A stretch of 64,000 nt of DNA from Chitinophaga pinensis (GTDB lineage Bacteria; Bacteroidota; Bacteroidia; SXHM01), in the NCBI GenBank assembly GCA_945889235.1, contig CAMDBK010000001.1, forward strand, positions 5,485 to 69,484, given 5' to 3'. The notes under the pieces are model-generated. The model ran no database searches. It saw only the letters and a program-made list of their open reading frames with translations, and was not told the DNA's origin. This document shows, one piece after another, positions 7,517 to 13,215 of the stretch (the stretch's first letter is position 1; each line of letters starts with the position of its first letter). The position numbers and the translations under genes were made by a program.

Positions 7517-8152
7517 CTACAAAAACGGATTATTTGCCTTTTCAAACCCGATTGTGGTTTCAGGGCCGTGTCCGGGATAAACGGTAACGCCATCTCCAAG
7601 CGGAAAAAGTTTTTCGTGAATGCTGCTTATCAGTGTATCAAAATTCCCTCCGGGAAGGTCTGTTCTTCCAATGCTTCCATGAAACAAAACATCGCCACCA
7701 ATTACAAACTTCTGTTCTTTGTTATAAAAACATAAACTTCCGGGTGAATGGCCGGGAGTAAAAAGAATTTGTAGTGAGCTTTCACCAAATTTAATCACAT
7801 CTTTTTCATCAATAAATTTTCCGGGAGCGGGCGGTTTTTCAAGACGAATTCCAAAAATAGCAGCGGCTCTTTCTGCGTTTTCAAAAATCGGAATTTCAAT
7901 TTTGTTGGTTTCTGAAATCAGGTTGTAGCGTTCGGTAATGTATCTACAGCCGAGAATATGATCGATGTGACAATGTGTAAGAATCAGACGGACAGGTTTC
8001 AGATTATTGTTTTCAATAAACGTTGAAAGCTCTGCCTGTTCCAGCGGAGTGTAGCATCCCGGGTCAATGATAATGCACTCATTAGTTTCGTCATACAAGA
8101 CATACGTATTTTCCTGAAAAGGATTAAACGTGAAAAAAGCAATTTGAATCAT
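7517..8152 (-). CDS. MBL-fold metallo-hydrolase (glyoxalase II-like)
   Basis: HCHIDHILG metal-binding motif. 211 aa. Confidence 0.7.
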   Translation of the reverse strand: MIQIAFFTFNPFQENTYVLYDETNECIIIDPGCYTPLEQAELSTFIENNNLKPVRLILTHCHIDHILGCRYITERYNLISETNKIEIPIFENAERAAAIFGIRLEKPPAPGKFIDEKDVIKFGESSLQILFTPGHSPGSLCFYNKEQKFVIGGDVLFHGSIGRTDLPGGNFDTLISSIHEKLFPLGDGVTVYPGHGPETTIGFEKANNPFL

Positions 8153-8195
8153 GGTGCAAATTTAGTTTTCATTTCTTTCTATCTTTGACTCCCTT

Positions 8196-9119
8196 ATGCA
8201 AATACAAACAATCTCGCCTCAGGCGAGACCCGATTTCAGCAAAACACCAACCATTGACCAGGTTGGAGTGGAAGAACGTGTGGCACGATTTCAAACGCGT
8301 AGCATAAAAAAAGAAAGCAAAGTGCAGGGTTTGAAACTTGCATTGAGCATGATTGACCTTACTACGCTGGAAGGAAAAGACACCGAAGGAAAAGTAAAAC
8401 AACTGTGTTATAAAGCAGCACATCTGCACGATGTTCTGCAGGGCTTACCGACCGTTGCAGCAGTTTGTGTTTATCCCACTTTTGTGAAACTTGCCAAAAA
8501 ACAATTAGAAGGAACGGGGATAAAAGTTGCTTCCGTTGCAACGGCTTTCCCGAGCGGCCAATCTACACGAAAAGTGAAAATAAGCGATACACATTTTGCG
8601 GTGGAGAATGGAGCAGATGAGGTGGACATGGTGATTTCGCGCGGTGAATTTCTGGAAGGAAATTATGCCTATGTATTTGATGAAATTGCCGAGGTGAAAG
8701 CAGCTTGTGGCGATGCACGATTAAAAGTAATTTTAGAAACAGGAGAACTCTCAACGCTTGATAATGTGCGCAGGGCAAGCGAAATAGCAATTTATGCCGG
8801 TGCAGATTTTATTAAAACGAGCACCGGAAAAATTTCTCCAGCCGCCACACAGCCTGTTACCCTGGTGATGTTAGAAACCATTCGCGACTACTATTACAAA
8901 ACCGGAAAAATGGTGGGAATGAAACCCGCAGGTGGAATTTCAACGGCAAAAATTGCGTTGCAATATCTGGTGATGCTGCGCGAAACATTGGGTGATAAAT
9001 GGCTCACCAACGAATGGTATCGCTTTGGTGCGAGCAGTCTGGCAAATGATATTTTAATGCAATTGCAAAAAGAACAGGATGGGGTTTATCAAAGCGGAGA
9101 TTATTTTTCAAAAGACTAA
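8196..9119 (+). CDS. deoC: Deoxyribose-phosphate aldolase (long form)
   Basis: LSMIDLTTLEG near the N-terminus, DMVISRGEF and IKTSTGK (Schiff-base Lys region) motifs. Confidence 0.7.
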   Translation: MQIQTISPQARPDFSKTPTIDQVGVEERVARFQTRSIKKESKVQGLKLALSMIDLTTLEGKDTEGKVKQLCYKAAHLHDVLQGLPTVAAVCVYPTFVKLAKKQLEGTGIKVASVATAFPSGQSTRKVKISDTHFAVENGADEVDMVISRGEFLEGNYAYVFDEIAEVKAACGDARLKVILETGELSTLDNVRRASEIAIYAGADFIKTSTGKISPAATQPVTLVMLETIRDYYYKTGKMVGMKPAGGISTAKIALQYLVMLRETLGDKWLTNEWYRFGASSLANDILMQLQKEQDGVYQSGDYFSKD

Positions 9120-9132
9120 AAGCCCCTCACGA

Positions 9133-9149
9133 CCTCCCCAAAGGGGAGG
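9133..9149. terminator. GC hairpin CCTCCCC-AAA-GGGGAGG downstream of deoC
   Basis: Perfect 7-bp stem 14 bp after the deoC stop and before the aldehyde dehydrogenase ATG at 9166. Preceded by CCCCTCAC. Resembles the in-gene element at 11615-11662. Confidence 0.4.
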
Positions 9150-9165
9150 AGAAAAACAAAGAACA

Positions 9166-10641
9166 ATGAAAAAAATAATAAATAAAAAAACTCTTTCTCT
9201 GGGCAATTCTAAATGGGCTTACGCGCCTTCACCTGAAAGCACTTCGCATATCAATCTGAAGAAGCAATACGAACTTTTTATTGATGGCAAGTTTGTAAAG
9301 CCTTCATCCGGAAAATATTTTGACACTATCAATCCGGCTACTGAAGAAAAGCTTTCTTCCATTGCTGATGCGGATGAAAAAGATGTGGACAAAGCAGTGA
9401 AAGCAGCGCGCAAAGCGTACGATAAGACATGGAGCAAGCTGCCGGCAAAAGAACGCGGAAAATATATTTACCGCATTGCGCGTTTGTTGCAGGAGCGTGC
9501 TCGTGAGTTCAGTGTTATAGAAACAATGGATGGCGGAAAATCCATTCGCGAATCACGTGACATTGATATTCCGCTGGCAGCAAATCATTTCTTTTATTAT
9601 GCAGGTTGGGCTGATAAATTAGAATACGCTTTTCCGAATCGTAAGCCGCAAGCACTGGGTGTTGCAGGACAAATTATTCCCTGGAATTTTCCATTGCTGA
9701 TGGCAGCGTGGAAAATTGCCCCAGCTTTGGCAACGGGCAATACCGTTGTTTTAAAGCCCGCGGAAACCACCTCGCTCACTGCTTTAAAACTTGCCGAACT
9801 TATTGCCGATAGCGGTTTGCCCGATGGCGTGGTGAACATTGTTACAGGCGCTGGGCGCACCGGAGCAGCAATTGTGAATCATCCCGATATCGATAAAATT
9901 GCGTTCACAGGTTCTACCGATGTGGGTAAACTAATTCAGAAAGCAATTGCCGGAACCAGGAAAAAAGCAACGCTGGAGTTGGGCGGCAAAGCCGCCAACA
10001 TTATTTTTGAAGATGCTCCGATTGACCAGGCGGTGGAGGGAATTGTGAACGGAATATTTTTTAATCAGGGGCATGTGTGTTGTGCCGGTTCGCGCCTGTT
10101 TGTGCAGGAAGGCGTTGCTGATGTGGTTATCCGCAAACTGAAAGACAGATTGGAAACGTTGATTGTTGGCAACCCACTTGATAAGAACACCGATATAGGT
10201 GCTATTAATTCAAAACAACAACTTGCCACCATCAACAAATACATTGAGATTGGTAAAAACGAAGGCGCTGATTTTTACCAGAGCAAGTGCAGCGTTCCGA
10301 GTAAAGGATATTTCTGCAGACCAACATTATTTTTGAATGCATCACAAAGTCACCGTGTGGTGCAGGAAGAAATTTTTGGTCCGGTTTTAACTGTGCAGAC
10401 TTTCAGAACTGTTGAAGAAGTAATTGAAAAAGCCAACAATATTCCTTATGGTTTGTCGGCTGGCGTGTGGACGGATAAGGGTTCTAAAATTTTTAACATG
10501 ACCAATAAATTGCGTGCAGGGGTTATTTGGGCAAACACTTATAATAAGTTTGACCCTACATCACCTTTCGGGGGATATAAAGAAAGCGGGTTTGGTCGCG
10601 AGGGCGGGTTGCATGGGTTAATGCCCTATCTTAAATTTTAA
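9166..10641 (+). CDS. NAD(P)-dependent aldehyde dehydrogenase
   Basis: ELGGKAANIIFEDA and FFNQGHVCCAGSRLFV (catalytic Cys) motifs. Start moved to the ATG at 9166 (MKKIINKK) after the hairpin. Confidence 0.85.
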   Translation: MKKIINKKTLSLGNSKWAYAPSPESTSHINLKKQYELFIDGKFVKPSSGKYFDTINPATEEKLSSIADADEKDVDKAVKAARKAYDKTWSKLPAKERGKYIYRIARLLQERAREFSVIETMDGGKSIRESRDIDIPLAANHFFYYAGWADKLEYAFPNRKPQALGVAGQIIPWNFPLLMAAWKIAPALATGNTVVLKPAETTSLTALKLAELIADSGLPDGVVNIVTGAGRTGAAIVNHPDIDKIAFTGSTDVGKLIQKAIAGTRKKATLELGGKAANIIFEDAPIDQAVEGIVNGIFFNQGHVCCAGSRLFVQEGVADVVIRKLKDRLETLIVGNPLDKNTDIGAINSKQQLATINKYIEIGKNEGADFYQSKCSVPSKGYFCRPTLFLNASQSHRVVQEEIFGPVLTVQTFRTVEEVIEKANNIPYGLSAGVWTDKGSKIFNMTNKLRAGVIWANTYNKFDPTSPFGGYKESGFGREGGLHGLMPYLKF

Positions 10642-10655
10642 AAACATTACTTGCT

Positions 10656-12020
10656 TTACGCCCCAATATAACTTCCCCCGCAAACGCGCAGCGTTTGTCC
10701 GTTGATACCTGCCGCTCCCGGTGAGGAAAGAAAGGTAATCATATCTGCTACATCTTCGGCTAAGCCACCTTGGTTTAGATTGCTTAGTCTGCGTCCGCCC
10801 ATTTTAGTGAAGAGAGGCATTTTGGCTGTCATTTTGGTTTCAATAAAACCGGGAGCAACAGCATTTGCTGTTATGTTATTTGCAGCAAGTTCTTCTGCTA
10901 ATGCTTTTACATAACCAATGATTCCTGCTTTGGTAGCCGCATAATTTGTCTGCCCGAAATTTCCTGAAAATCCGGAGATGGAAGAAAGACAAACAATGCG
11001 TCCGTTGTTACGGATGGTACCAGATTTCAGCAATAAATTATTTGTTCTGATAAGCGCTTGAAGATTTACATTCAAAACCATGTCCCAGTATTTCTCATCC
11101 ATTTTTGCAATGGTTTTATCGCGGGTAATTCCGGCATTGTGAATGAGAATGTCAACACCGTTGAATTCTTTTTTCAGGTAATCATTAATGAGTTGTGCAG
11201 ACTCTTCTTTGCTCATATCAGCAGCAAGAAATTTTCCGTTGATGGAGTCGGCAACTTTTTTTCCTGCTTCTGAATCTTCGGGTCTGTCTAATACAATTAC
11301 GGTTGCTCCTTCGGCAGCCAATTTACGGGCAGTGGCTTCGCCAATACCGCGCGCAGCGCCTGTTACCAAAGCAATTTTTCCTGCCAAAGAATTTTCCAGC
11401 GGAACAATTTGCGGAATAGTTCCGCTTGAATTAATTCTGAAAACCTGTGCCGTTACAAATGCAGATGCTTCTGAAAAAAGAAAATGCAAAACAGGGAACA
11501 ATTGTTTTTCTGTTACGTTTTTATTTTCAATCCGAACCAGATTTACCGTTGCTCCTTTTCTGCCAATCTCTTTTGCAACCGAGCGTGAGAAACCGTCTAT
11601 CGCTTGTTGTGCAGCCTCACTCTCTGCCCCCCTCTCCCTTGGAGAGGGGCTGGGTGTGAGGCTTATTATTACGATACGAGCATTATTTGCCAGCTTTCCC
11701 GCATTCGCATGAAAAAAATCATACAGTGATTTCAGTTGTGCAACAGTTTCAATTCCTGTGGCATCAAACAACAACACATCTGCTCTGTCTTCGGCAGGAA
11801 GAGAATTTATTATAGCGTGTCCGCCCAACTCATCATAGATATTGCTGAGAACAGAAGCATTGATTGCGCCCGTTGCAGTAACAACTTTTTTACCGGCAAG
11901 AATTTGTTTTTTCCAACTTCCTTTCAGTCGTTTCAGTCGCGGAGGAACTGTAATTCCAAGTACATTGAAAACTGATTTCCATCCCGGTTTGTGCCCGTAT
12001 TCCAATATAAAGTCTGCCAT
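10656..12020 (-). CDS. Two-domain SDR oxidoreductase (high-molecular-weight FabG4-like 3-oxoacyl-ACP reductase architecture)
   Basis: C-terminal SDR domain with KIALVTGAARGIGEA (Rossmann), NAG and Y..TK catalytic motifs. ~200-aa N-terminal extra domain. 454 aa as in HMW FabG. Confidence 0.6.
   Translation of the reverse strand: MADFILEYGHKPGWKSVFNVLGITVPPRLKRLKGSWKKQILAGKKVVTATGAINASVLSNIYDELGGHAIINSLPAEDRADVLLFDATGIETVAQLKSLYDFFHANAGKLANNARIVIISLTPSPSPRERGAESEAAQQAIDGFSRSVAKEIGRKGATVNLVRIENKNVTEKQLFPVLHFLFSEASAFVTAQVFRINSSGTIPQIVPLENSLAGKIALVTGAARGIGEATARKLAAEGATVIVLDRPEDSEAGKKVADSINGKFLAADMSKEESAQLINDYLKKEFNGVDILIHNAGITRDKTIAKMDEKYWDMVLNVNLQALIRTNNLLLKSGTIRNNGRIVCLSSISGFSGNFGQTNYAATKAGIIGYVKALAEELAANNITANAVAPGFIETKMTAKMPLFTKMGGRRLSNLNQGGLAEDVADMITFLSSPGAAGINGQTLRVCGGSYIGA
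11615..11662. repeat. 48-bp GC-rich nested hairpin inserted in frame in the SDR interdomain linker
   Basis: GCCTCAC..CCCCTCTCC-CTT-GGAGAGGGG..GTGAGGC (7-bp outer stem plus 9-bp inner stem). Encodes LTPSPSPRERGAESEA. Local GC is far above the gene background. Confidence 0.5.
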
Positions 12021-12129
12021 GATTTATTTTTTTGTGTTGCCAAAAATAGACATTCGTTGCAGATTTGCGATTTGTTGCCGGGTGAAAGCATCACGAATAA
12101 ATACTTATGGTTTTTTTTACTTTTGATGC

Positions 12130-13215
12130 ATGAAAAATTCTATTGTCATATCACTGCTTTCATCACTCATTATTTTTTCCTGTTCTTCCCCGAAATCTTC
12201 AGAGAACAAGGAAACTCCCGGTGAAAATAAAGTTGCAGAAACGTTTGAACTGAAGCCTCACTTTGGTGAAACCGAATCAAATTATTATGTAGCAGATTCA
12301 ATTGCAGGTCATATTCATCAGCCTAATACTATAAAGGAATTCAAGTGGCCCGAGCATCCGTTGGGAAAGCTGGTGATTAAAACAAATAACTTAGGATTTA
12401 AGGAAGACAGCGATACAAAAATTGAAAAAAATTCAAATACATTTCGTGTAATTGTTACCGGTGATTCACATATTGATGGTGTGGTTTACAATTCAGAATC
12501 ATTTCCGAATCAACTGGAAGAAATGATTAATTTAAAAGTTTCCGGTAATGATGTTGCGTGGGAAATTATCAATGCAGGAGCGGGTTATTATGGACCACAG
12601 AATTATTTTGGAGTATTGAAACGATTTGAATCTTTGAAGCCCGATTTGTTTATTGTTACAATTTATATAGGCAATGATTTTTTAGATGCAGTAAGAATTG
12701 AGAATGAAAATAACCGGCTGACTGTTCCCGAACGGAAAGACGATTATTATTATGATTTATGGGCGGTAGATGAAAAGCATCCCGGATTTACCGGACAACT
12801 GATGAATCAGGTAAAGTTTTTTAAAAAATTTCCTGAATTTAAAACTACGGCAATTTCAATAACTCAAAAACAGTTAACCCTTATAAAAGAACAGTGCGAT
12901 AAAAATAAAATCGGACTTTACATTTTGCTTTTGCCTACAAAGGTTGATGTTGAGCCTGCAACAGACGAAGCAAGCATTAAAGATGTTCAGAGTATGCTCA
13001 AATTTTCTAATGATGATTTGAAAATAAACAGGGAACTGACAGAAAAACTGATAGAATGGTTAAAAACAAATAACCTTAACTATGTTGACCTGTACGATAA
13101 TTGGAAAGAGAAAAAAGGAACTGAAGAATTATTCTGGAAAGCAGATTATCATTTGAATGATAAGGGTCACAAGAGTATTGCTGAAATTATGCAACCCATA
13201 ATTTCTCAACACTGA
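12130..13215 (+). CDS. SGNH/GDSL-family hydrolase lipoprotein
   Basis: Lipobox LIIFSCSS. Block I VTGDSH, block III YIGNDF, block V DYHLNDKGH. Confidence 0.55.
   Translation: MKNSIVISLLSSLIIFSCSSPKSSENKETPGENKVAETFELKPHFGETESNYYVADSIAGHIHQPNTIKEFKWPEHPLGKLVIKTNNLGFKEDSDTKIEKNSNTFRVIVTGDSHIDGVVYNSESFPNQLEEMINLKVSGNDVAWEIINAGAGYYGPQNYFGVLKRFESLKPDLFIVTIYIGNDFLDAVRIENENNRLTVPERKDDYYYDLWAVDEKHPGFTGQLMNQVKFFKKFPEFKTTAISITQKQLTLIKEQCDKNKIGLYILLLPTKVDVEPATDEASIKDVQSMLKFSNDDLKINRELTEKLIEWLKTNNLNYVDLYDNWKEKKGTEELFWKADYHLNDKGHKSIAEIMQPIISQH

What the first reader, a model, noticed from the sequence alone, without database searches (positions are those of the whole stretch)
11615..11662. In-frame 48-bp GC-rich nested hairpin inside the coding region of a two-domain SDR gene
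The sequence GCCTCAC-tctctg-CCCCCCTCTCC-ctt-GGAGAGGGG-ctgg-GTGTGAGGC lies in the interdomain linker of the 454-aa SDR. It adds exactly 16 codons (LTPSPSPRERGAESEA) and is far more GC-rich than the rest of the gene. A closely related hairpin (CCCTCAC..CCTCCCC-AAA-GGGGAGG) lies intergenically at 9123-9149. This looks like a palindromic element inserted in frame, as known for Rickettsia palindromic elements, but here in a Bacteroidota genome.
Basis: partly seen in the sequence, partly recalled or inferred. Interest (0 to 1): 0.55.

Follow-up and report, generated by a model that had tools for sequence, protein, structure and literature searches.

The report
Triplex-forming palindromic repeat inside reductase gene
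A 49-base GC-rich palindromic repeat of the BoxC / "intrastrand triplex" kind has replaced part of a surface loop of a FabG4-like reductase gene in frame. The same repeat occurs across many bacterial phyla, often inside genes and at both ends of small DUF559-nuclease cassettes, which hints at what spreads these long-unexplained repeats.

Summary
The hairpin is real. It lies at window 11614-11662 (49 bp), has GC 0.69 against 0.40 for the window, and folds far better than shuffles. It is in frame in a 454-aa FabG4-like reductase gene.

It is a foreign element. Ten of 16 close orthologs lack it and encode a conserved 11-residue loop instead. Five others carry variants at the same site, in both orientations.

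Its core is CCCCTCTCC-loop-GGAGAGGGG-YY-GGGGGTGAGG. That exact pattern occurs in at least 120 genome stretches from a dozen phyla, with unrelated flanks.

The 3' tail mirrors the purine arm (G to G, A to A/T) and covaries with it. This defines a purine-motif intrastrand triplex repeat, a kind known as BoxC/PIT/TM (Holder 2015).

Three things were not found in the literature I could search:
- In-frame copies occur in many real genes.
- Every DUF559 (Vsr-like nuclease) domain in the fetched loci is flanked by these motifs, often in frame inside LeuRS, MetRS or methylase genes.
- E. coli ycjD (DUF559) sits beside a BoxC copy.

Two details are wrong: the site is a surface loop of the N-terminal domain, not the interdomain linker, and the net gain is 5 codons, not 16.

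The parts
11614..11662 (+). Whole palindromic element (49 bp). The triplex-motif orientation (pyrimidine arm, purine arm, G-rich tail) reads on the + strand. The host gene is on the - strand.
11629..11637 (+). Pyrimidine arm CCCCTCTCC. Loop 1 (CTT) follows at 11638-11640.
   Evidence: 9/9 Watson-Crick pairs with 11641-11649
11641..11649 (+). Purine arm GGAGAGGGG. Loop 2 (CTG) follows at 11650-11652.
11653..11661 (+). G-rich tail GGTGTGAGG, the mirror image of the purine arm and the candidate third strand. The canonical form is GGGGTGAGG.
   Evidence: 8 of 9 positions follow the purine-motif code G.GC, A.AT, T.AT. Family-wide covariation is shown.
11614..11620 (+). Outer arm GCCTCAC, complementary to GTGAGGC at 11656-11662. 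This pairing makes the whole element a nested palindrome.
   Evidence: A perfect-palindrome version is seen in L037.
10656..12020 (-). Host gene: a two-domain FabG4-like 3-oxoacyl-ACP reductase (454 aa). The element encodes residues 121-136. Residues 122-131 are new loop residues.
   Evidence: NCBIfam PRK08261 scores 489 bits against a cutoff of 410. Also Pfam, PDB homologs 6uut, 3u0b, 3q6i and the AlphaFold model.
9123..9149 (-). Second, shorter motif of the same architecture but a different subfamily. On the - strand it reads CT-CCTCCCC-TTT-GGGGAGG-TCG-TGAGGGG. It is intergenic, between the deoC-like ORF and the aldehyde dehydrogenase ORF.
   Evidence: The tail fits the mirror code at 6 of 7 positions. 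The CCTCCCC/GGGGAGG subfamily with tail GGTGGGG is seen in L100 and L122.

Best explanation
The 49-bp nested hairpin is a copy of a G/C-rich 'intrastrand triplex motif' repeat. This is the class described as BoxC, PIT elements or TM. It consists of a pyrimidine arm, a purine arm and a G-rich tail that mirrors the purine arm.

Shown: it entered the coding sequence of a variable surface loop of the N-terminal domain of a FabG4-like reductase. It replaced 15 nt of loop codons with 30 nt and remodelled the next 15 nt into the outer stem.

Why it survives (shown for the sequence, inferred for selection): five of the element's six reading frames have no stop codon, the net change is a multiple of three, and the loop tolerates it. 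It is most likely a selfish or neutral passenger with no function for the enzyme.

How it spreads (inferred): these motifs are the inverted terminal structures of small cassettes that encode a DUF559 (Vsr-like, PD-(D/E)XK) nuclease. Single motifs such as this one would then be either collapsed remnants of such a cassette or non-autonomous copies. A collapse could occur by deletion between the two hairpin cores, which are direct as well as inverted repeats of each other.

The single-stranded DNA triplex or hairpin would form transiently, during replication or repair. That would promote the breaks, template switches and gene conversions that create, flip and erode copies.
For: Insertion:
- Empty orthologs and filled orthologs differ only at this site.
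- Six different alleles occur among 16 close homologs, in both orientations.
- They fall into two sequence lineages. One has linker CT, tail end GAGGC and inner flank AGCAGAG. The other has linker TC and tail end GAGGG. Each lineage occurs in both orientations.

Family:
- The exact 30-base pattern occurs in at least 120 stretches from Bacteroidota, Pseudomonadota, Chloroflexota, Planctomycetota, Cyanobacteria, Acidobacteriota, Nitrospirota, Ignavibacteria, Verrucomicrobiota, Myxococcota and Spirochaetota. Flanks are not conserved.

Triplex architecture:
- The tail mirrors the purine arm and covaries with it. Examples: AAGGAGGGG with GGGGTGGTT, GGGGAGG with GGTGGGG, AGGGAGGGG with GGGGTGGGT, GGAGAAGGG with GGGATGAGG.
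- 17 of 54 non-canonical stem/tail combinations have at most one incompatibility. In 1000 shuffles the mean was 6.0 and the maximum 11.
- The sister motif TMECO forms a stable triplex in vitro by CD and NMR, and is linked to local genome instability, including a 'palindromic effect' (PMC4666352).

Coding copies:
- 13 of 49 canonical copies in low-GC loci lie inside frames of at least 300 codons.
- Pfam confirms the hosts: NuoM, MnmE, PatG, amidase, CPSase, ResB/CcsA, SNF2 and several methylases.
- 5 of 6 frames are open.

DUF559 link:
- All 9 loci with a DUF559 domain have hairpin cores within about 100 bp on both sides. Seven are in frame inside LeuRS (3), MetRS, HsdM (2) or a type ISP enzyme.
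- A free-standing DUF559 gene (L134) is also flanked on both sides; a further LeuRS cassette (L135) shows a canonical copy just downstream, but its upstream side was not seen to carry one.
- All of the top 120 homologs of a Chitinophagaceae LeuRS carry DUF559 in frame.
- E. coli ycjD (DUF559) has a BoxC copy about 190 nt downstream.
- E. coli genomes with ycjD show more BoxC-like matches than genomes without it: 3.5 against 1.95, p = 2e-5.
Against: - There is no DUF559 gene in the 64-kb window, and none near the gene in the relatives. Any nuclease would have to act in trans or be long gone.
- In about 150 kb of this lineage, the only canonical copies are at this one site. Independent transposition into the same 30 nt therefore seems unlikely, and the origin of the allele pattern is unresolved.
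- No target-site duplication is visible. The element replaces host bases rather than simply inserting.
- The ortholog tree is star-like, so gain events cannot be counted.
- Nuclease activity of DUF559 on these motifs has never been shown.
- One DUF559 clade (L130-L133) is flanked by a different repeat.
- DUF559 fused to methylases could be a functional Vsr-like partnership rather than a selfish insert.
- Holder et al. found no triplex in vivo by DMS footprinting and no link to mobile elements in E. coli.
- The E. coli correlation is confounded by phylogroup.
Confidence: 0.7

Rival explanations
1. Collapsed cassette. A complete DUF559 cassette with two inverted triplex-motif ends once sat in this loop. 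Different lineages then lost the nuclease by deletion between or near the two hairpin cores. This left a left end plus the last 7 nt of the right end (window, L005), a left end only (L003), or a right end only (L006, L008, L007).
For: - It explains why both orientations occur at one site, and why the inner flank AGCAGAG/CTCTGCT travels with the orientation.
- Full cassettes have exactly this tails-outward layout.
- L025 and L037 show single cores with both tails.
- Holder et al. describe paired inverted motifs eroding to a stem-loop.
Against: - No FabG4 allele with a DUF559 insert appears among the listed homologs. All are 486 aa or shorter among the close ones.
- It needs several independent in-frame deletions, plus long persistence of the full cassette.
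- The inner flanks of other cassettes are not conserved.
Confidence: 0.3
2. One old insertion of a single motif. Later in-situ inversion, gene conversion and homologous exchange of this short segment between lineages produced the patchy distribution. No nuclease cassette was ever at this site.
For: - The two sequence lineages each occur in both orientations.
- The palindromic core offers homology in either orientation.
- These motifs are associated with local instability.
- The canonical motif has a low copy number in this lineage.
Against: - The genes are only 80-88% identical in DNA, a range where homologous exchange is inefficient.
- The 7-bp outer repeats are short for recombination.
- L006 cannot be derived from the window allele by a clean inversion alone. 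A 6-nt difference remains.
Confidence: 0.35
3. It is a REP/REPIN-type element moved by a RAYT (Y1 transposase), or a conventional MITE moved by an IS transposase.
For: It is a short GC-rich palindrome. Pairs in inverted orientation about 100 bp apart occur in other genomes, which resembles REPINs.
Against: - There is no GTAG or CGTC tag at either end, and these tags define the two REP superfamilies (abstract of PMC3733652; sequence).
- There is no target-site duplication.
- The conserved 3' tail is explained by mirror covariation with the stem, not by a terminal inverted repeat of an IS.
- The gene consistently found between paired copies is DUF559, not a transposase.
Confidence: 0.05
4. The segment is native. 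It would be a lineage-specific loop that evolved in place, or a selected mRNA or DNA structure with a role for this gene, such as a translational pause between folding units.
For: - The loop is variable in length across the family.
- The total length of 454 aa equals the NCBIfam profile length.
- The mRNA hairpin is strong.
Against: - The nucleotide sequence is identical to elements in unrelated genes and phyla.
- Closest relatives lack it.
- Both orientations occur, giving different peptides and different mRNA structures.
- PIT elements showed no promoter or terminator activity in E. coli.
Confidence: 0.03
5. Assembly or sequencing artefact.
For: Triplex and hairpin sequences are known to disturb polymerases and sequencing (PMC4666352).
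Against: Related alleles at the same codon positions occur in six independent assemblies from NCBI, ENA, JGI and Logan. All keep the reading frame.
Confidence: 0.01

Closest known systems
BoxC / PIT elements / TMECO intrastrand triplex motifs (Holder et al. 2015, NAR 43:10126, PMC4666352; Hoyne and Maher 2000-2002, as cited there)
   Same: - Same architecture: a C-rich 9-nt arm, a 3-6 nt loop, a G-rich arm, a 3-nt loop and a second G-rich arm that mirrors the first (class II purine motif).
- High sequence conservation, many copies and wide taxonomic spread.
- Frequent inverted pairs that erode to stem-loops.
- Associated local variability.
- E. coli BoxC also lies next to a DUF559 gene, ycjD.
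   Different: - The sequence register differs: CCCCTCTCC/GGAGAGGGG/GGGGTGAGG here against CCCTCNCCC/GGGNGAGGG/GGGNGAGGG.
- TMECO was reported only in Proteobacteria, 'always intergenic' in MG1655, and 'not associated' with mobile elements.
- Here the copy is in frame inside a gene of a Bacteroidota genome, and the family frames DUF559 cassettes.
Rickettsia palindromic elements (RPE; own knowledge, Ogata et al. 2000)
   Same: [quoted passage not shown] They add a peptide segment in tolerant surface regions, and orthologs with and without the insert exist.
   Different: RPEs are 100-150 bp, restricted to Rickettsia and relatives, and unrelated in sequence. They have no triplex-type mirror tail and no known associated nuclease gene.
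REP / REPIN elements with RAYT transposases (PMC3733652, PMC3116915, PMC2817692)
   Same: Short GC-rich hairpin repeats that occur singly or as inverted pairs. A single-copy protein gene flanked by the repeats is proposed as the mobilising enzyme.
   Different: REPs carry a GTAG or CGTC tag, are extragenic, and are associated with a Y1 (HUH) transposase. Here there is no tag, the associated gene is a Vsr-like PD-(D/E)XK nuclease, and copies are common inside genes.
Homing endonuclease genes and inteins, including the Vsr-like family (I-Bth0305I; PMC3239194, PMC2677866)
   Same: A small nuclease gene of the Vsr-like fold sits in frame inside essential host genes. It is tolerated because the reading frame is kept.
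   Different: No Hint/intein splicing domain and no intron were detected around the DUF559 inserts. The insert apparently stays in the mature protein. The cassette has structured inverted ends and leaves dispersed single ends, which homing endonucleases do not.
GC clusters of yeast mitochondria and small dispersed repeats of cyanobacteria (own knowledge; not checked here)
   Same: Very short GC-rich palindromic mobile repeats in AT-rich genomes. They occasionally sit in frame in coding sequences.
   Different: Different sequences and hosts. No triplex-type mirror tail has been described, and there is no DUF559 association.

Membership tests
Intrastrand triplex motif, class II purine type (ITxF definition, Holder 2015) | Three consecutive blocks (C-rich stem, G-rich stem, second G-rich stem) of 6-15 nt, loops of 1-6 nt, and at most one mismatched triad if the stem is 7 nt or longer | tested here: met
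   CCCCTCTCC / CTT / GGAGAGGGG / CTG / GGTGTGAGG gives 9 of 9 Watson-Crick pairs and 8 of 9 compatible triads.
Intrastrand triplex motif, class II purine type | The third block is constrained by the stem (mirror relation G-G, A-A/T) rather than merely conserved | tested here: met
   Covariation in non-canonical stems: 17 of 54 with at most one incompatibility, against a mean of 6.0 and a maximum of 11 in 1000 shuffles.
Intrastrand triplex motif, class II purine type | The single strand actually folds into a triplex (CD or NMR) | not testable with these tools
   Shown only for the sister sequence TMECO. In vivo formation was not detected there.
TMECO / BoxC subfamily of E. coli | Matches CCCTCNCCC-N3-6-GGGNGAGGG-N3-GGGNGAGGG | tested here: not met
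   The window copy has CCCCTCTCC / GGAGAGGGG / GGTGTGAGG (pattern). It shares the architecture but belongs to a different subfamily.
DUF559 cassette (two inverted triplex motifs around a DUF559 ORF; defined here) | A DUF559 coding segment lies between two motifs with their tails pointing outward | tested here: not met
   A six-frame HMM search finds no DUF559 in the window. The window copy is a single core with one full tail and one partial tail.
Rickettsia palindromic elements | Membership of one of the 100-150 bp RPE consensus families of Rickettsiales (own knowledge) | tested here: not met
   The element is 49 bp, lies in a Bacteroidia-like genome, and its family consensus is about 35 nt. 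No sequence comparison with RPE consensus sequences was run.
Rickettsia palindromic elements | In-frame presence in ORFs, with orthologs that lack the insert | tested here: met
REP / RAYT | GTAG or CGTC tetranucleotide tag at one end of the palindrome | tested here: not met
   Flanks of the window copy and of 142 copies show no such tag. The preferred 5' flank is CT or CA.
REP / RAYT | Association with a RAYT (Y1 transposase) gene | not tested
   No transposase profile was run on the loci. The only recurrent enclosed gene seen is DUF559.
FabG4-like (PRK08261) two-domain 3-oxoacyl-ACP reductase (host gene) | Full-length match above the NCBIfam cutoff, with a C-terminal SDR domain | tested here: met
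   NF006110 scores 489.3 bits against a cutoff of 410, covering residues 3-454. Pfam adh_short covers 215-400. PDB FabG4 homologs appear.

The most novel reading that the evidence does not exclude
BoxC/PIT-type intrastrand triplex repeats have had no known origin or mobilising agent since the 1990s. They may be the terminal structures, and the single-copy remnants, of a cross-phylum family of small selfish cassettes encoding a DUF559 (Vsr-like) nuclease. These cassettes and their solo ends colonise protein-coding genes in frame, including essential ones such as LeuRS and MetRS. The window element would be one such solo end. E. coli YcjD would be the resident nuclease for BoxC.
Probability: 0.4. 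Interest if true: 0.8.

Novelty: new variant of a known kind. Interest (0 to 1): 0.6.

Why it matters
**Protein evolution.** A class of tiny structured DNA repeats, so far treated as intergenic curiosities of enterobacteria and cyanobacteria, also reshapes protein sequences across phyla. It adds or replaces loop peptides such as PSPxERG, PLSxGEGxGVR and SPLxxRGxGGE in enzymes. It also creates hypervariable sites: six alleles of one loop were seen among 16 orthologs here.

**Annotation.** These peptide signatures, and 'DUF559 domain-containing' names given to LeuRS genes, are footprints of the element and not features of the enzyme.

**A testable link.** If the DUF559 association holds, it gives BoxC/PIT repeats a candidate mobilising nuclease. 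E. coli (ycjD next to BoxC) would be a ready experimental system. It would also define an unusual kind of element, a nuclease cassette with triplex-forming ends that lives inside open reading frames without splicing.

Tried and rejected
- **Rfam** (E-value mode) on 8000-13000 gave only chance-level hits: mir-885, whalefall-1 and Xist.
- **Literature search by sequence strings** (CCCCTCTCC, GGAGAGGGG) returned only eukaryotic primer and G-quadruplex papers.
- **Other literature searches** on in-frame palindromic elements, DUF559 and Vsr-like mobile elements found no description of this element. The triplex/mirror-repeat search found Holder 2015.
- **Looser pattern and hairpin scans** of the window and the relatives' loci found no further canonical copies.
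- **A homolog search with the DUF559 domain alone** returned mostly free-standing 120-135 aa proteins. It was uninformative about fusions because of the word index.
- **Trees.** The NJ protein tree and the bootstrapped DNA tree of the orthologs are star-like, so I could not count gains or losses.
- **Deriving one allele from another.** A single clean inversion between the 7-bp outer arms does not reproduce L006 from the window allele; 6 nt are left over. No target-site duplication could be identified.
- **Covariance model.** One was prepared (alignment A2) but not built. MAFFT mis-registers arms with different loop lengths, and the Python scans already answered the question.
- **G-quadruplex, terminator and Shine-Dalgarno-like readings of the tail** were considered and dropped once mirror covariation was found.
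Full report
**1. The observation**

The sequence GCCTCAC-TCTCTGCC-CCCCTCTCC-CTT-GGAGAGGGG-CTGG-GTGTGAGGC is present at window 11614-11662.
- GC is 0.69 against 0.40 for the window.
- As mRNA (minus strand) it folds at -32.8 kcal/mol (z = -4.8). As DNA it folds at -18.8 kcal/mol (z = -5.2). None of 200 shuffles folds as well.
- The 9-bp core with a 3-nt loop is expected 0.01 times in the window by chance.
- It is in frame in ORF 10656-12020 (-), 454 aa.

The host is a FabG4-like two-domain reductase. NCBIfam PRK08261 scores 489 bits against a cutoff of 410. The SDR domain spans 215-400. Solved homologs include 6uut, 3u0b, 3q6i and 3v1t.

**2. Is it an insertion?**

Among the 15 closest homologs (79-94% identity), ten have a short conserved loop, L-NPSGSAENVSA-QQ or close variants. 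Five carry element-like peptides at exactly this place.

I fetched DNA for seven orthologs and aligned it.
- Empty alleles read CTC AAC CCT TCA GGA AGT GCA GAA AAT GTT TCC GCA CAG CAA.
- In the window, 30 nt (ACA CCC AGC CCC TCT CCA AGG GAG AGG GGG) replace 15 nt (AAC CCT TCA GGA AGT).
- The next five codons are host codons changed at 6 of 15 positions, so that they now pair with the left arm (GCA GAG AGT GAG GCT against GCA GAA AAT GTT TCC).
- The net gain is 5 codons (454 against 449 aa), not 16.

An AlphaFold model (pLDDT 88) places the new residues 122-131 in a loop between strand 110-121 and helix 132-155 of the N-terminal domain. Confidence is locally lower there (75). This is well before the true interdomain region near residues 197-214.

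**3. Alleles at the site**

On the gene strand:
- The window and L005 read GCCTCACCCCCAG-core-AGCAGAG-(G/A)G(T/C)GAGGC.
- L006 and L008 read the reverse complement, CTCTGCT-core-CTGGGGGTGAGGC.
- L003 and L007 form a second pair, with linker TC and tail end GAGGG, again in opposite orientations.

So both orientations occur at one codon position, in two sequence lineages.

Filled alleles are scattered among empty ones in an NJ tree. The genes are 80-88% identical in DNA and the tree is star-like, so the number of events cannot be counted.

In about 150 kb of this lineage (window plus loci L001-L009), the only canonical copies are at this site.

**4. The family**

The hits come from Bacteroidota, alpha-, beta- and gamma-Proteobacteria, Chloroflexota, Planctomycetota, Cyanobacteria, Acidobacteriota, Nitrospirota, Ignavibacteria, Verrucomicrobiota, Myxococcota, Spirochaetota and others.
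- Flanks are unrelated, apart from a preferred CT or CA before the core.
- Inverted pairs with their tails outward, tandem arrays and perfect 47-nt palindromes all occur.
- Rfam has nothing for it.

**5. Architecture**

The conserved 3' tail is the mirror image of the purine arm, with G opposite G and A or T opposite A, after a 2-3 nt linker. In copies with other stems the tail changes accordingly:
- AAGGAGGGG pairs with GGGGTGGTT.
- GGGGAGG pairs with GGTGGGG.
- AGGGAGGGG pairs with GGGGTGGGT.
- GGAGGGGG pairs with GGGGGAGG.
- GGAGAAGGG pairs with GGGATGAGG.

Of 54 non-canonical stem/tail combinations, 17 have at most one incompatibility. In 1000 shuffles the mean was 6.0 and the maximum 11. 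This is the code of an antiparallel purine-motif triple helix (G.GC, A.AT, T.AT).

A literature search then found that this class is known. It was described as BoxC in E. coli in the 1990s, as 'potential intrastrand triplex' (PIT) elements by Hoyne and Maher, and as TM/TMECO by Holder et al. 2015 (PMC4666352). That paper reports the following:
- TMECO (CCCTCNCCC-N3-6-GGGNGAGGG-N3-GGGNGAGGG) forms a stable triplex as a single strand, by CD and NMR, with Tm 70-82 C.
- The triplex is not seen in vivo by DMS footprinting.
- TMECO has no promoter or terminator activity.
- It is 'always intergenic' in MG1655 and was 'not associated' with mobile elements.
- It marks unusually variable loci.
- Paired inverted copies erode into stem-loops.
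- Purine-motif triplexes do not form in RNA, so the relevant molecule is DNA.

The window copy meets the ITxF definition, with 9 of 9 Watson-Crick pairs and 8 of 9 triads. It is a different sequence subfamily from TMECO.

The second hairpin at 9123-9149 has the same layout in a shorter subfamily that is also seen in L100 and L122. Its stem is CCTCCCC/GGGGAGG and its tail is TGAGGGG, fitting at 6 of 7 positions.

**6. Coding copies are common**

Five of the six reading frames of the element lack stop codons. In loci with GC below 0.5, 13 of 49 canonical copies lie inside frames of at least 300 codons.

Pfam confirms real hosts: NuoM-like, MnmE, PatG protease, amidase, carbamoyl-phosphate synthase, ResB/CcsA, SNF2 helicase, MmeI-like and other methylases.

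Chitinophagaceae LeuRS proteins show present/absent solo-motif peptides at several sites. One example is APSPLERAGGEV in some orthologs against ELKGKVWN in others.

**7. The DUF559 link**

In several low-GC loci the motif lies next to an in-frame DUF559 domain (PF04480, Vsr-like nuclease fold) inside LeuRS or a type ISP enzyme.

A DUF559 profile run on six-frame translations of all loci and the window found nine loci with the domain. Every one has hairpin cores within about 100 bp on both sides. In the cassettes read base by base, L014 and L106 have the tails pointing outward; in L025 both flanking copies lie in the same orientation.
- Seven are in frame in LeuRS (three loci, two different sites), MetRS, HsdM (two) and a type ISP enzyme.
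- A free-standing DUF559 gene (L134) is also flanked on both sides by motifs of this family. A further LeuRS cassette (L135) has a canonical copy just downstream; no copy was seen on its upstream side.
- All of the top 120 homologs of a Chitinophagaceae LeuRS carry DUF559 in frame, and some carry two.
- One low-GC DUF559 clade (L130-L133) is instead flanked by a different direct repeat.

In E. coli K-12, ycjD (annotated as DUF559) lies beside fabI. A BoxC/TMECO copy sits about 190 nt downstream of it. There is also a degenerate hairpin at its stop codon and a partial duplicate of its 3' end.

The ycjD-BoxC stretch is complete in 3377 of 5426 complete E. coli genomes. In a spread sample of 60 records, genomes with ycjD have 3.5 further BoxC-like matches and genomes without it have 1.95 (p = 2e-5). 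This comparison is confounded by phylogroup.

I found no paper linking DUF559 to these repeats. The library I could search is not complete.

**8. Interpretation**

Shown:
- The element is a foreign repeat of the intrastrand-triplex class.
- It sits in frame in a tolerant loop.
- The site is hypervariable among relatives.
- The family is cross-phylum, frequently intragenic, and frames DUF559 cassettes.

Inferred:
- The repeat spreads with, or through, DUF559 nucleases.
- The window copy is a solo end, either a collapsed cassette or a non-autonomous copy.
- Transient single-strand structures drive the flips and erosion.
- The insert has no function for the enzyme.

Not resolved:
- How the same 30 nt came to be occupied in several lineages. 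Candidates are repeated targeting, one old event plus exchange, or decay of a full cassette.
- Whether DUF559 cuts these motifs.
- Whether the inserted peptide stays in the mature protein.

**9. Verdict**

The element belongs to a known kind (BoxC/PIT/TM). It shows behaviour not reported for that kind in the literature I could search: in-frame coding copies, and a position at the ends of nuclease cassettes. That raises a testable hypothesis about what moves these repeats.

Noticed in passing
window 9123-9149: A second, shorter triplex-type motif lies between the deoC-like ORF (stop codon at 9117-9119) and the aldehyde dehydrogenase start (ATG near 9167). On the - strand it reads CT-CCTCCCC-TTT-GGGGAGG-TCG-TGAGGGG. 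The long ORF call from 9079 reads through it as SPSRPPQRGGE, so an over-extended start annotation is likely here.
   Followed up: partly
L029, L106, L135, L014 and proteins P0241-P0360: LeuRS of Chitinophagaceae and Cytophagales carries one or two in-frame DUF559 nuclease domains framed by triplex motifs, at two different sites (before and after the editing domain). NCBI names some of these LeuRS proteins 'DUF559 domain-containing protein'. Whether the enzyme works with the insert or removes it is unknown.
   Followed up: partly
L136 (E. coli K-12 NC_000913 1351150-1351800): ycjD (DUF559) is followed by a degenerate hairpin at its stop codon, then a partial duplicate of its own 3' end, then a BoxC/TMECO copy. 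Upstream there is a 16-bp inverted repeat, CACCTCATTCTGACAA...TTGTCAGAATGAGGTG. The stretch is complete in only 62% of complete E. coli genomes. One strain (ETEC6) has ycjD split by IS1.
   Followed up: partly
L130-L133: A low-GC clade of free-standing DUF559 genes (P0167, seen on more than 188 contigs) is flanked by a different direct repeat, GGA(T/C)AGGAGGCAATGAAAATCTTCAAAAAACA. It is tandemly duplicated in L132, inside a glycosyltransferase/EpsG cluster. This suggests that DUF559 genes are mobile with other kinds of ends too.
   Followed up: no
L100 (Prevotella veroralis, 8 kb): Eight canonical copies lie within 8 kb. Each is preceded by a conserved stretch of about 20 nt (GCAAACAGCACTATTCACT), so here the motif is part of a longer repeat unit. 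Similar longer units occur in other Prevotella loci (L055, L080), where the motif is followed by CCGGTAGTRGGG.
   Followed up: no
L027, L090, L103, L105 (Anaerolineales, Synechococcus): These loci hold tandem arrays of the motif with a period of about 40 nt.
   Followed up: no
L134, L046, L112: Composite two-hairpin units occur: CACCTCATCCCTAG-CCCTTCTCC..GGAGAAGGG-spacer-CCCTCTCC..GGAGAGGG-GCCGGGGGTGAGGTG. The outermost CACCTCA and TGAGGTG can pair, so the unit may fold as a three-way structure. In L134 such units flank a free-standing DUF559 gene on both sides.
   Followed up: no
L025, L048, L091, L094, L115, L117: Restriction-modification and DNA methylase genes (type ISP, MmeI-like, HsdM, Eco57I-like, N6_N4 methylase) are over-represented among hosts of both cassettes and solo motifs. 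This may reflect a functional Vsr-like partnership with methylases rather than pure selfishness.
   Followed up: no
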